The position numbers were made by a program, and so were the translations under genes. A stretch of 64,000 nt of DNA from the human T2T-CHM13v2.0 reference genome, Homo sapiens. This document shows positions 1-6,263 of the stretch, piece by piece. Under the pieces are notes generated by a model. The model searched no databases, had not been told where the DNA came from, and saw only the letters and a list, made by a program, of their open reading frames with translations. The number at the start of each line of letters is the position of its first letter. Within the stretch, counting starts at the first letter, position 1. The stretch lies in assembly GCF_009914755.1 (NCBI RefSeq), contig NC_060927.1; one strand, 5' to 3'.

Positions 1-770
1 TATAGAATGTTTAAGTAACCCACAAGAAGGCAGAAAAACGTAAACAGAAACAAAAAAGAGAACAAAGGAAAACAAAAAATTAAATGGCAAACTTAAGATC
101 TAACATAATAATTACATTAAATGTAAATAGTCTAAACATGTTAAAGACATATTGACAGCATAGATTTAAAAACATGACCCCAACATATACTATCTACATG
201 TAACTCATGTCAAATATTACAAGGTTGTATTTGAATATAGGCAGGTTGAAAGTAAAAGAAAATGGTAGATAGTAGAAAGTAAAAGAAAGTGGTAGATAGT
301 AGATGATAGATAATCATGTAAACATTAATAAAAAGAAAGCAGAGTGGCTATATTATTAGACAGAGAAGACATCAAAGTAAAGAAAATTACTAAAGATAGA
401 GAGAAACATTATGTAATGACAAAAAGGGTCAATTTACCAAAAGACATAGTAATCCTATATGTATATGTGCCAAACAACAGGGACATAAAATAATTGAAGC
501 AAAATCTGATAGAAATGAAAAGATAAATAGACAAATCCACAATTTTACTGGAAAACTTTAACACCTCTCTCTCAACAATTGATAGAATAACTGGACAGAA
601 GATCAGCAAGGATATAAAACTCAGTAGCACCACCGACCAACCATATCTAATAAAGATTTATAGGATGCTTCCCACAACAACAGCAAAATACATATTCTTT
701 GCAAGTGCCAATGGCACAAATATAAAGAAAGATCATCTCCTGGGCAAACAAATTATACAAATCACAACAA

Positions 771-1542
771 ATTTAAAATGACTGAAGTCATACCAAGTAT
801 ATTATCTGAGGACAATGGAATAAAACTACAAATCAGTAGCAGAAAGATAATAGTCTCCAAACACCCAGAGCCTAAACAACATGCATTTAAATAATTTATG
901 GGATAAAGCAGGAGCTACAAGATAAATTTTAAAAATACACTAAGCTGAATAAAAATAAAAATGAACAACTCAAACTTTGTGGAACACAGTGAAAGCATGC
1001 TGAAATGAAAATTTTTAGCACTAAAAAAGAAAAAAATCTCAAATCAATCTAATCTCGCACCTCAAGAATCTAGAAAAAGAAGAGTGAAATAAACCCAAAA
1101 CAAGCAGAAGAAAGATAATAAGAAAGATGAAGACAGAAATTTATAAAATTGAAAACAGAAAAATAGTAGAGCAAATCAGTGAAACAAAGAGAAGTTTCTT
1201 AAAAAAAAATCAATAAATATCTAAAAGCCTCTAGCAAGAGTGACAAAGAAATAAAAAGAAGACACAAATTACCAGTAACAGGAATGAAACAGAAGATATT
1301 ACTACAGACATCAAAAGGATAATAAGGGAATATTCTGAATAACTCCACATACAGAAATTTGACAATTTAGAGATTATAGATTAATTCCTCAGAAAACTCA
1401 AACTACCACAACTCACCCAATATGAAATAGATCATTTAAATAGCCCCACAACTATTAAGGAAATTGAATTAATAATTTTTTAAACCCACCAAAAGGAACA
1501 CCCCAGGACAAGAAAGCTTCAACAGGTAATTCTATTCAACAT
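771..1542 (+). repeat. Left arm of 770-bp inverted repeat (partner 3037-3806)
   Basis: Manual alignment to the reverse complement of 3037-3806 shows 4 substitutions and a 2-nt poly-A length difference. Confidence 0.97.
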
Positions 1543-2250
1543 TTAAAGAAGAAATAATGTTCATTCTACATAATCTTTTTCCAGAAAATAGTAGTGAATA
1601 CTTTTTTGTTCATTTTATGAAGCTACTATTACCCTGATTCTAAAACATGAAAAAAAAAACACAAAAAAGAAAAGCACAGATCAAAATTCCTGATGAACAC
1701 AGAAACAAAAATTCTCAACAAAATATTAGCAAATAGAATCTAGCAATACATGAAAAGAATTACATGCCATGACCAAGTAGAGATTATTCTAAGGATGTAA
1801 ATCTGCTTTAGTATTCAAAAATCAATCAATGTAATCCACCATTTGAACAAACTAAAGAAAAAAAATCACATGCTTATATAAATTGAAGGAGAGAGATTGG
1901 TTTATACAACTCAACACCTATTAATGATATTTTTTAAATCTCCCAGCAAAGAATAGAGAACATTCTTAACTTCATAGAGAGCATCTACCAAAAAACCTTA
2001 CAGTTAACATTATACTTAATGATGAAAAATTGAATGTTTTCCCTTAATGTTTGGAGCAAAATAAGGATGTCCACTATCATCACTTTTATTCAACATAAAA
2101 GTTCTAGCCAGTGAAACAAGATAAGTAAAAGAAATAAAAGATGCACAGAGTAGAAAGGAAGAAATAAAAAATGTTCTTATTTTCATATTGTCAGTGTTGA
2201 AAATCCAAAATAATCTTTAAAAAGAAAAAAAAAAGAAGAAATGAAACTAA

Positions 2251-2962
<712 letters not shown>

Positions 2963-3036
2963 ATATATAAATGCAATGGTATTTACAATCACTAAAAAAT
3001 TTAAGTGCTTAGGTATAAATTTAATAAAACATGTAC

Positions 3037-3806
3037 ATGTTGGATAGAATTACCCATTGAAGCTTTCTTGTCCTGGGGTGTTCCTTTTGGTGGGTTTAAA
3101 AAATTATTAATTCAATTTCCTTAATAGTTGTGGGGCTATTTAAATGATCTATTTCATATTGGGTGAGTTGTGGTAGTTTGAGTTTTCTGAGGAATTAATC
3201 TATAATCTCTAAATTGTCAAATTTCTGTATGTGGAGTTATTCAGAATATTCCCTTATTATCCTTTTGATGTCTGTAGTAATATCTTCTGTTTCATTCCTG
3301 ATACTGGTAATTTGTGTCTTCTTTTTATTTCTTTGTCACTCTTGCTAGAGGCTTTTAGATATTTATTGATTTTTTTAAGAAACTTCTCTTTGTTTCACTG
3401 ATTTGCTCTACTATTTTTCTGTTTTCAATTTTATAAATTTCTGTCTTCATCTTTCTTATTATCTTTCTTCTGCTTGTTTTGGGTTTATTTCACTCTTCTT
3501 TTTCTAGATTCTTGAGGTGCGAGATTAGATTGATTTGAGATTTTTTTCTTTTTTAGTGCTAAAAATTTTCATTTCAGCATGCTTTCACTGTGTTCCACAA
3601 AGTTTGAGTTGTTCATTTTTATTTTTATTCAGCTTAGTGTATTTTTAAAATTTATCTTGTAGCTCCTGCTTTATCCCATAAATTATTTAAATGCATGTTG
3701 TTTAGGCTCTGGGTGTTTGGAGACTATTATCTTTCTGCTACTGATTTGTAGTTTTATTCCATTGTCCTCAGATAATATACTTGGTATGACTTCAGTCATT
3801 TTAAAT
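3037..3806 (-). repeat. Right arm of 770-bp inverted repeat (inverted copy of 771-1542)
   Basis: Direct reverse-complement match: 3806 pairs with 771 and 3037 with 1542. Confidence 0.97.
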
Positions 3807-3811
3807 GGTGG

Positions 3812-4293
3812 GTTTACATTCCCACGAGCAGTGTAGAAGTGTTCCCTGATCACCGCATCTATGCCAACATCTACTGTTTTTCAATTCTTTGATTATGGCC
3901 ATTCTTACAGGAGTAAGGTGGTATCGCATTGAATACTACTCAGCATAAAAAGGAATGAATTAACAGCATTTGCAGTGACCTGGATGAGATTAGAGACTAT
4001 TATTCTAAGTGAAATAACTCAGGAATGGAAAACCAAACATCAGATGTTCTCACTGATACCTGGGAGCTAAGCTGTGAGGACACAAATGCATAAGAATGAT
4101 ACAATACACTTTGGGAACTTGGGGTAAAGAGTGGGAGGGGGTTGAGAGCCAAAAGACAACAAATATGGTGCAGTGTATACTGCTCGGGTGATGGGTGCAC
4201 CAAAATCTCACAAATCTCCACTAAACAACTTATGTAACCAAATACGACCTGTACCCCAATAACTTATGGAAAAATAAATTTTTTTAAAAAATA
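3812..4293 (+). mobile_element. 5'-truncated, 5'-inverted (twin-primed) L1PB1-like element
   Basis: 3812-3931 is antisense ORF2 3' sequence (gtttacattcccacgagcagtgtagaag...gtatcgcattg). 3931-4293 is the sense L1PB1-type 3' end (ctcactgatacctgggagctaagc; cctgtaccccaataacttatggaaaaataaa). Confidence 0.85.
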
Positions 4294-4295
4294 AT

Positions 4296-4713
4296 ATTTC
4301 AGCTTGCAGCTCAACCACACAAATGTTTTTCCTCAAAATAACCACACTTTATGGGAATAAATTTCCTGTTTCCTCACATAGGGTATTAAAGTCATGTACT
4401 CAAGGGTTGAGATATAATAAAATTAATAGTTATATGGCTGCATAAAGAATATTCTCAATAAAATTGGATTTCTTTTCTGTAGGGTATAGCAGTGAAGAAT
4501 ATAGTACACTATTTACACAATACAAGTACAATTGTGTCCCACAGCCTTGACTCCCGCTGAGACACCAGCAATTTTATCCACCATTGCAGATGTCAAAACA
4601 ACAAAGAAGATGAGTGATATCTCAGTATTATCTTGAAAGTAGTTTTGACCTTGCAAATCCCTAAAGGGTCTGGGAGACCATCAGGTGTGCAGGGACTACT
4701 CCTTGAGAATTGT
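4296..4713. mobile_element. hAT-Charlie (Charlie1-like) DNA transposon terminal fragment
   Basis: End motif tcagtattatcttgaaagtagttttgacc...aaagggtctgggagacc...ttgagaattg resembles the recalled Charlie1 terminus. Confidence 0.6.
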
Positions 4714-6263
4714 GGCACTTTGGCATTGTGATTTAAAATGTACTACAAGATGGGATAATAATATGTTTACAACGGATATAAGGAAAGTAGACAGGATGGT
4801 ATTCTTACAGCCATGTTCCCACCAGGGTCAAGAGAAAAGAACAAAGCCTAGTACATGCCAGGGCCATCCCTTCCAAATGGGCCACAAATGCCCCTCTGGA
4901 GGCTGCTGACCTGGAGACCTGCAATGGACACATCTTGCCAGCTCTCCTTCCTCTTTCTCCAGAGGCCTGCCCAGCCTTGCTAGCTATATATTACACCCAA
5001 CAGAGCAGAGCGATACTGGAAAATAATCAAATGTTTCCCCTTTTAAAGTGTGGTTGACAGGGACCTTTTAGAATTTCTAAATGGTCATGTAAAATGTATT
5101 CATTTTAAGACAAATGATATTTGATTCCTATGAAGCAGCTAAGGATTTTTTCCTATCTCAGATTATTATAAAAAGTATCTGCCTAGGAAAAAAGTAAACT
5201 TCTAGAGATCTTAAATCTGAAATTATTTCTAAATGGAGAAAAAAATGAATTTTTCCAGGGGGAGTAAAATATCTATGTATTTCCAAATGATACTGCTTTT
5301 CTTCACCTAAAGTTAGTCAGACTATGGCTCCATGTAAGTGAAAACGGTTAAAAAAAAATGGGGCTTAGTTCAAAACTGACATTGTCTTTTTTATTTGTTT
5401 TTTAAAACAATTTATTGAGATGAAGCTTTGATAAAAATTTCTTGAAGGAAAAATTCAATTGATTCTGATATACATTTTAATTTCAGTTTTAGAAAGTCAG
5501 GTCCTCATTATACTGACCATTTTTGGGCCTTTCAAAACACAAAGTTTTAAGGCTTAATTTTAACGAAATGTCAAAACTCAGAGTAAGGCAACAGCTATCA
5601 ATAAATTATCTCTTTTTATCAAAAAATATATAGGACATTCATACTGAAAATGAAAAAAATAGAAGAAAGAAATCAATGATCTAAATAAGTAGAGAGATAC
5701 ACTGTTCTTATGAATTGAAAGATTTAACATGGTCATAAGATTAAGTTCCTCAAACTGATATACAGGATTAATTTAATTCCTATCAATATCTTCACAAGAT
5801 CTTTTGTGGATATAGATGAGATAATGGGAAAATGTATATTGAAAGCCATAGAAGGTAGAATAGCTAAAACAAACTTTTTTTGGAAAAAAAAAAGTGAGAG
5901 AAATCAGTCTACCTGATTTTATGACTGATTATATAGCTGTAGTAATTAAACTGTGTGGTATTGGCAGAGGAATAAACACGTAGATCAATGGAACAGAATT
6001 GAAAACGCAGAAATAGAGCTACACAAAATTACCCAACTAATTTTTGACAAAATTACAATTGCAGTTGGTTGGAGGAAGGATAGTCATTTTAGCAAATAAC
6101 ATTGGAGCCTGTGTCTGTTTCACCATTGGTTGGATAGTCATATAACTAGCATGCAAACAGCAGTAACACAGCATCTTAAAATCTTAAAAATGATTTCTAA
6201 ATTTTGATACAGATTTAAATTTTGAAAATATTATACTAAACTTTTATGGATTAAAACATAGGG

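What the first reader, a model, noticed from the sequence alone, without database searches (positions are those of the whole stretch)
3026..5632. One composite L1-mediated insertion: copied target DNA + twin-primed L1PB1 + ~1.3-kb 3' transduction
Seen: the host L1 stops at aaaacatgtaca (3026-3037) and resumes after aaaaaatatata (5621-5632), a degenerate 12-bp TSD (9/12 match). Between them, in order: the inverted copy of upstream target DNA (3037-3806), an inverted L1PB1 piece (3812-3931), the sense L1PB1 3' end (3931-4293), a truncated Charlie-like fragment plus non-repeat DNA (4296-5620), AATAAA at 5600-5605 and an A-run 15 nt later. Established: L1 read-through gives 3' transductions ending in a downstream poly(A) signal, and twin priming gives 5' inversions. 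Inference: the second-strand target end snapped back on upstream DNA (catgtacatg palindrome at 3030-3039), copied 770 nt, then primed on L1 RNA. Retrotransposition itself would then have built the inverted repeat.
Basis: partly seen in the sequence, partly recalled or inferred. Interest (0 to 1): 0.75.

Follow-up and report, generated by a model that had tools for sequence, protein, structure and literature searches.

The report
Old L1 insertion, self-correcting inverted repeat
An old jumping-gene (L1) insertion on human chromosome 3 carries a 1.3-kb copy of chromosome 21 DNA and starts with a 770-base mirror copy of nearby DNA, which the insertion likely made itself and which was likely re-copied much later, because the mirror copy is still 99% identical to its source while the chromosome 21 copy has drifted 9%.

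Summary
The anatomy is real. The host L1 is contiguous across 3037/5633 in 12 of 19 family copies. The insert holds an inverted copy of 771-1545, an inverted L1 ORF2 piece and a sense L1 3' end. Then comes 4287-5619, whose only full-length paralogue found is on chr21 (9.3% diverged), has a longer transposon copy and runs on past the AATAAA. Transduction and twin priming are therefore well supported. The inner 19 nt carry 3 differences where the copy keeps the family base and starts at the TSD end, so the fold-back junction is likely old and insertion-made, and the rest was likely overwritten within the last ~3 My. Either the whole arm is old and homogenised (0.5) or a short old seed was recently extended (0.33). 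No source L1 sits at the chr21 donor, only a possible 27-nt stub. The palindrome snap-back is unsupported, and the 'A-run' is the TSD itself. Fold-back plus twin priming is known but rare in somatic L1 insertions (52-220 nt). This is a longer germline fossil, a new variant of a known kind. Ape orthologues would decide.

The parts
1..3037 (+). Host old L1 (ORF2 region), left part, with two Alus inside
   Evidence: 527-778 matches L1 ORF2p endonuclease aa 136-212; family copies are 67-74% identical
771..1545 (+). Template arm of the inverted repeat (original host DNA)
   Evidence: host unbroken across 771 in 38 of 38 other copies and across 1545; holds the non-family base at 1278, 1523, 1524, 1536
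1546..3033 (+). 1488-nt spacer, in the host's orientation, with two Alus (about 2254-2548 and 2667-2950)
3026..3037 (+). 5' target-site duplication; starts at an A-run
   Evidence: identical to the family sequence in two copies printed; 9/12 to 5621-5632
3034..3806 (-). Copied arm (inverted duplicate of 771-1545); 3034-3037 overlaps the TSD with 3/4 microhomology
   Evidence: junction with the L1 piece found nowhere else among 40 hits
3038..3056 (-). Diverged inner edge of the copied arm; 3 differences, all keeping the family base
   Evidence: family base in 7/9, 7/9 and 8/9 copies; clustering P about 0.002-0.004 under a uniform clock, 0.05 if it is one cluster mutation
3799..3811 (+). Junction of arm and inverted L1: 6/8 microhomology to the L1 antisense, then an 8-nt deletion
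   Evidence: family antisense sequences printed
3807..3931 (-). Inverted L1 piece (twin-priming product), ORF2 aa ~1109-1150
   Evidence: maps upstream of the sense piece in 16 of 24 family copies; internal deletion ~220 nt
3928..4293 (+). Sense L1 3' end (ORF2 C-terminus and 3' UTR); 3928-3931 shared with the inverted piece (3/4 microhomology)
   Evidence: best family copies 89-90% identical; 17 of 334 conserved columns differ
4268..4287 (+). L1 terminus with a T7 run that resembles a donor-specific 27-nt insertion on chr21 (possible source-L1 stub)
   Evidence: 17/20 match, score 25 vs 12-19 for 23 family ends; 1 of 2052 null windows; post hoc
4287..5619 (+). 3' transduction from chr21:38,790,048-38,791,732 (T2T); first ~420 nt is the truncated end of an old interspersed repeat (Charlie-like, label recalled)
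5600..5605 (+). AATAAA poly(A) signal; homology to the donor ends 14 nt later
5621..5632 (+). 3' target-site duplication, decayed; it is also the only A-run
5633..6110 (+). Host L1 resumes

Best explanation
An L1 insertion carrying 1.3 kb of chr21 DNA and an inverted L1 piece sits in an older L1, and its 5' end likely folded back and copied ~770 nt of upstream DNA during the insertion, making an inverted repeat that was likely re-homogenised in the last few million years. Steps: (1) Shown: the TSD, the order of parts, the chr21 donor and 9.3% drift. (2) Inferred: about 35-45 My ago (rate recalled) a read-through RNA from an L1 then at the chr21 site, since lost or deleted, was reverse-transcribed from a nick at the A-run at 3026. 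(3) Inferred: the other end (3' end at 3037) annealed 0.9-1.5 kb upstream, on the resected top strand or on a local sense transcript, and copied 1545 to 771. It then switched by 6/8 microhomology onto the L1 RNA (twin priming) and joined the first cDNA at 3928-3931. (4) Inferred: later intra-strand fold-back copying or gene conversion overwrote the arms. Such copying primes inside the inner end and runs outward, which would leave an old inner edge and a sharp outer edge, as seen.
For: The arm begins at the TSD end with no host loss. At all 4 differing sites inside the arm the copy has the family base (7/9, 7/9, 7/9, 8/9), so the copy predates those changes. Three of the 4 lie in the inner 19 nt, as expected for 9% drift (P>=3 in 22 nt is 0.34) and not for a uniform young clock (P 0.002-0.004). 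The transduction drifted on both sides (16 chr3-derived, 13 chr21-derived, 8 unresolved of 37) and lacks the donor's Alu, so the insertion is old. Fold-back plus twin priming in one L1 insertion is documented (PMC10191854: fold-back 3 cases, both 1 case), as are 1.6-kb and 6.3-kb fold-backs at L1 cuts (PMC11702581). The two spacer Alus share a rare triplet (2 of 34 Alus), a hint of local conversion. Polymorphic inversions between 654- and 755-nt repeats with 1.7-3.6-kb spacers exist (PMC13629690 Table S1).
Against: No orthologue or second haplotype was seen, so the age of the outer 750 nt is not shown. The arm is much longer and further away than reported templated pieces (52-220 nt; typically <250 nt within 15 nt). 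The ~220-nt internal L1 deletion is far above the 14.5-nt median. There is no mismatch in the outer 430 nt; short-tract conversion would leave an outer edge too (chance of a clean 20 nt is 0.14). Inner microhomology is only 3/4. The edge cluster could be a single multi-nucleotide mutation (P 0.05). No separate poly(A) tail survives, all 3 TSD changes are in one copy, and no source L1 is at the donor. The locus was not found in the inversion tables searched.
Confidence: 0.5

Rival explanations
1. Two steps. The old L1 insertion left only a short templated copy (19 to ~200 nt) at its 5' junction. A recent replication template switch primed in that seed, copied out to 771 and returned by microhomology inside the inverted L1 piece, deleting ~200 nt of it.
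For: Explains the old inner edge, the perfect outer edge, the unusually long ~220-nt L1 gap and the usual short size of templated pieces. Template switches that perfect imperfect inverted repeats are described in apes, at shorter range (PMC7954356 passages).
Against: Needs a second rare complex event seeded by a short, diverged repeat 1.5 kb away, whose return point happens to leave a normal twin-priming order. The outer microhomology fits twin priming equally well.
Confidence: 0.33
2. The whole arm is a recent, L1-independent inverted duplication with deletion that happened to land on an old L1 insertion.
For: Simplest reading of 99% identity. All three substitution events on one arm has P = 0.25, so it is not excluded by direction alone.
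Against: It must start within 4 nt of the TSD end with no host loss, and its few differences cluster at that end with family bases in the copy.
Confidence: 0.06
3. Independent of the arm question: 4287-5619 is not a true transduction. Reverse transcription began on a chr21-derived poly(A) RNA and switched to an L1 RNA at a short match to the L1 3' end, so no full L1 ever sat on chr21.
For: No L1 3' end upstream of the donor within 17.5 kb. The donor has 20 nt resembling the L1 terminus just upstream of the shared block.
Against: Transductions are common (PMC9311842 passages), and loss of unfixed source elements is expected (recalled). An endonuclease-like TT|AAGA lies at the start of the shared block (0.8-3.8% by chance). 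The 20-nt match is also explained as a stub of a deleted source.
Confidence: 0.12

Closest known systems
Somatic L1 insertions with 5' fold-back inverted duplication plus twin priming (PMC10191854, passages seen)
   Same: Inverted copy of upstream target DNA at the 5' junction together with an internal L1 inversion.
   Different: There 52-220 nt, somatic, 1 case with both features. Here ~770 nt from 0.9-1.5 kb away, germline, tens of My old, with a 1.3-kb transduction and later homogenisation.
Templated insertions in tumour L1s (bioRxiv 10.1101/2024.08.27.596794, passages and section 4 part 1 seen); L1-end fold-backs and locally templated insertions in cell clones (PMC11702581, passages and section 7 seen)
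   Same: Local genomic DNA copied into the L1 junction; fold-back after kilobase-scale resection of the reciprocal end.
   Different: Templates are typically <250 nt within 15 nt of the site; the kilobase fold-backs are chromosome-scale rearrangements and not completed insertions with a TSD.
L1 3' transduction (PMC9311842, passages seen)
   Same: L1 3' end followed by a foreign segment that ends just after a poly(A) signal; interchromosomal donor.
   Different: No source L1 at the human donor, no surviving poly(A) tail, and it is longer than the 7-997 nt reported there for polymorphic copies.
Short inverted repeats that mediate polymorphic inversions, e.g. HsInv0040, HsInv0061 (PMC13629690 Table S1 part 1, PMC6748972 passages)
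   Same: 650-760-nt arms with a spacer of 1.7-3.6 kb.
   Different: This locus was not found in those tables and its spacer is in the ancestral orientation in CHM13; inversion is untested.

Membership tests
L1 TPRT insertion | Target-site duplication in an otherwise contiguous host | tested here: met
   9/12 match; host contiguous in 12 of 19 copies
L1 TPRT insertion | Endonuclease-type site at the start of the TSD | tested here: met
   TSD begins AT|AAAA; the consensus motif is recalled
L1 TPRT insertion | Poly(A) tail before the 3' TSD | tested here: inconclusive
   the only A-run is the TSD; tail absent or decayed
Twin-primed (5'-inverted) L1 | Antisense L1 piece from upstream of the sense piece, then the sense 3' end | tested here: met
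   ORF2 aa 1109-1148 inverted, aa 1234-1274 sense; 16 of 24 copies
Twin-primed (5'-inverted) L1 | Microhomology at both junctions | tested here: met
   6/8 at 3799-3806 and 3/4 at 3928-3931; short, no null computed
Twin-primed (5'-inverted) L1 | Short internal deletion or duplication (typical, not strict) | tested here: inconclusive
   ~220 nt vs median 14.5 nt; the tail of the distribution was not seen
L1 3' transduction | Donor paralogue elsewhere that extends beyond both ends of the copy | tested here: met
   chr21; 8 of 9 repeat-family copies span the donor breakpoint
L1 3' transduction | Copy ends shortly after a poly(A) signal | tested here: met
   homology ends at 5619, 14 nt after AATAAA
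L1 3' transduction | Source L1 upstream of the donor (often lost for old events) | tested here: inconclusive
   no intact L1 3' end in CHM13; possible 27-nt stub; other primates not available
L1 fold-back inverted duplication | Inverted upstream target DNA starting at the 5' TSD end | tested here: met
L1 fold-back inverted duplication | Same age as the L1 insertion | tested here: inconclusive
   inner 19 nt look old, outer 750 nt look young
Concertedly evolving inverted repeat / recurrent inversion | Arms shared across species with higher identity within than between species; both spacer orientations exist | not testable with these tools
   only one human genome held; not found in the tables searched
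L1PB1 / L1MD / Charlie1 subfamilies | Diagnostic positions of the Dfam or Repbase consensus | not testable with these tools
   no repeat library; labels recalled

The most novel reading that the evidence does not exclude
A single germline L1 insertion created a 770-nt inverted repeat that has been kept nearly identical for ~40 My by inner-primed fold-back copying. L1 fold-backs would then be a birth route for the short, near-perfect inverted repeats behind recurrent human inversions, recognisable by an old inner edge at a TSD and a sharp outer edge. The chr21 stub would also record the almost complete deletion of the once-active source L1.
Probability: 0.3. Interest if true: 0.65.

Novelty: new variant of a known kind. 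Interest (0 to 1): 0.43.

Why it matters
It links two fields: rare fold-back junctions seen in somatic L1 insertions and the short near-identical inverted repeats that drive recurrent inversions. The locus has an internal clock (9.3% for the transduction, 0.13% for most of the arm), so one alignment with ape and monkey genomes would show whether a 770-nt repeat can stay homogenised for tens of My or was rebuilt recently. It also shows that arm identity can misdate a duplication. No gene is annotated in the window and no functional effect is claimed.

Tried and rejected
Palindrome snap-back priming: rejected. Source L1 on chr21: none found upstream; one search shows no hit bin at L009 7200-7600, and one hit cluster ~16 kb upstream (L010 600-1000) was not identified. 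Sibling transductions: none (searches score only the best candidates). A hypermutation burst in the chr3 copy, which would make the insertion young: not supported, changes fall on both lineages. Assembly artefact: unlikely, since the arms differ at sites where the copy has family bases; not tested with reads. Pfam scan of 7 frames: 0 families; PDB searches of 5728-5913 and 664-891 gave no significant match. Listing as a known inversion: not found by coordinate-prefix search in the supplements of PMC13629690, PMC12229492, PMC12350158 (file cut when stored), PMC13721702, PMC2603318 and PMC1270012. These negatives are weak: hg38, hg19 and hg18 positions were estimated from a recalled TRIM42 position, and comma-formatted numbers could not be searched. 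Three papers asked for by id were not held; bioRxiv supplements are closed and may list the locus. Text searches listed no paper on this locus; only listings were seen for most hits. Earlier scan findings were not available.

Full report
Observation. The stretch 3034-3806 is the reverse complement of 771-1545 with 768 matches, 5 mismatches and one 2-nt gap in an A-run; one mismatch (3036) lies inside the TSD overlap. It is the only inverted match of 88% or more (E<=1e-10) in the window plus 10 kb upstream. The host L1 runs through 771 in all 38 other copies listed, so 771-1545 is the original. Left flank end 3037 and right flank start 5633 map within 6 nt of each other in 12 of 19 family copies; 2 more were off by 8-9 nt and 5 were uninformative. 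The TSD copies match 9/12, which 0.16% of window 12-mers reach. The A-run after AATAAA is the 3' TSD, so no separate tail remains.

L1 part. The inverted piece matches L1 ORF2p aa 1109-1148 and the sense piece aa 1234-1274. In 16 of 24 family copies the inverted piece lies upstream of the sense piece. The missing stretch is 217-294 nt in 10 of the 12 copies where both anchors were found, and 500-526 nt in two. The arm's last 8 nt match the L1 antisense at 6 of 8, followed by 5 nt of L1 and an 8-nt deletion; the inner L1 junction shares 3 of 4 nt. This is twin-priming order, but the gap is long against a median of 14.5 nt in tumours (10.1101/2024.08.27.596794, section 4 part 1). Subfamily names are recalled.

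Transduction. 4287-5619 matches chr21:38,790,048-38,791,732 in two blocks at 89% and 87%, split by an Alu found only on chr21. No other full-length match was returned. The donor's old repeat continues upstream, and 8 of 9 family copies align across the breakpoint. The donor also continues past the poly(A) site, so chr3 is the copy. Divergence is 122 of 1309 sites (9.3%, K2P 0.10), shared between lineages (16 vs 13, 8 unresolved). With a recalled primate rate this is about 35-45 My. No L1 3' end lies upstream of the donor within 17.5 kb. Two post hoc signals compete for the lost source. One is an endonuclease-like TT|AAGA at the start of the shared block (0.8-3.8% by chance). The other is a 27-nt donor insertion absent from those 8 copies, 20 nt of which match the chr3 L1 terminus at 17/20, including a T6-7 run that 23 family ends lack (1 of 2052 null windows, 0 of 855 AT-rich windows, 0.4% of shuffles). 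I put the stub reading at about 40%, since it is low-complexity and needs an extra ~11-nt deletion on chr3.

The age conflict. If the arm had drifted like the transduction, 1 substitution in 750 nt would have P about 1e-30. The upper 95% limit puts the last copying at under 8-10% of the insertion's age. Yet the inner 19 nt carry three differences, and at these and at 1278 the copy has the family base (7/9, 7/9, 8/9, 7/9 copies). A young copy with junction errors would carry the non-family bases. Under a uniform clock the clustering has P 0.002-0.004, or 0.05 if the three changes are one cluster mutation. Together with the start at the TSD end, this makes the fold-back junction likely old and insertion-made (about 0.85 for the best model and rival 1 together), and most of the arm recently rewritten.

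Mechanism. Inferred order: nick at 3026; cDNA from the read-through RNA (1693 nt); the other end anneals upstream at 1542-1545 (3/4 match), copies outward, switches to the L1 RNA, and joins the first cDNA. The template could be the resected top strand or a local sense RNA; the sequence cannot tell. The palindrome at 3028-3041 is a by-product: the free end has no predicted fold. Later copying primed inside the inner end would explain an old inner and a sharp outer edge. Whether it rewrote a full-length old arm (0.5) or extended a short seed while deleting ~200 nt of L1 (0.33) cannot be decided from one genome. The long L1 gap and the short size of known templated pieces favour the second; the higher rate of exchange between long repeats (inference) favours the first. 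These odds are judgement, not computed.

Known work. PMC10191854 (passages) reports fold-back inverted duplications upstream of the target in 3 somatic insertions and fold-back plus internal inversion in 1, with 52-220 nt of extra synthesis. PMC11702581 (passages and section 7) reports locally templated insertions and kilobase fold-backs at L1 cuts. PMC6748972 and PMC3961182 (passages) report recurrent inversions between near-identical inverted repeats in humans and apes. PMC7954356 (passages) describes template switches that perfect inverted repeats. So each step is known. I found no report of this locus or of this combination in the germline in nine text searches and six supplement searches; these negatives are weak for the reasons given under Tried and rejected.

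Verdict. A real, old composite L1 insertion with a demonstrated donor, plus an inverted repeat that looks much younger than the insertion that likely started it. New variant of a known kind; interest 0.43.

Noticed in passing
window 2449-2462 and 2865-2878: The two spacer Alus (about 84% identical overall) share an identical ~23-nt tract with a TAT triplet seen in only these 2 of 34 Alus scored; likely a local Alu-to-Alu gene conversion.
   Followed up: partly
L009:7510-7537 (chr21 ~38,790,010-38,790,036): A 27-nt insertion absent from 8 family copies, resembling the chr3 L1 terminus; either a stub of the source L1 or local slippage (a 5-nt motif occurs three times).
   Followed up: partly
window 4296-5619 vs L009:7558-9233: Transversion excess between the paralogues (57 transitions, 65 transversions; P 0.003 against L1 family copies) and a cluster at 4830-4940 where chr21 has G/C and chr3 A/T 12 to 1; perhaps GC-biased conversion at the donor. 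Unexplained; window chosen after seeing the data.
   Followed up: partly
L009:8369-8713: An Alu in reverse orientation inserted in the donor after the transduction; gives a minimum age.
   Followed up: partly
window 245-303: 27-nt tandem duplication at 93-96% identity inside the host L1.
   Followed up: no
L012:1967-2343 and 3923-4298: Two ~380-nt direct copies at 89% identity upstream of the window; not identified.
   Followed up: no
G000:C13:26267330-26267923 (L053): Another member of the same L1 family shows adjacent opposite-strand matches to the 3' end, possibly another inverted copy.
   Followed up: no
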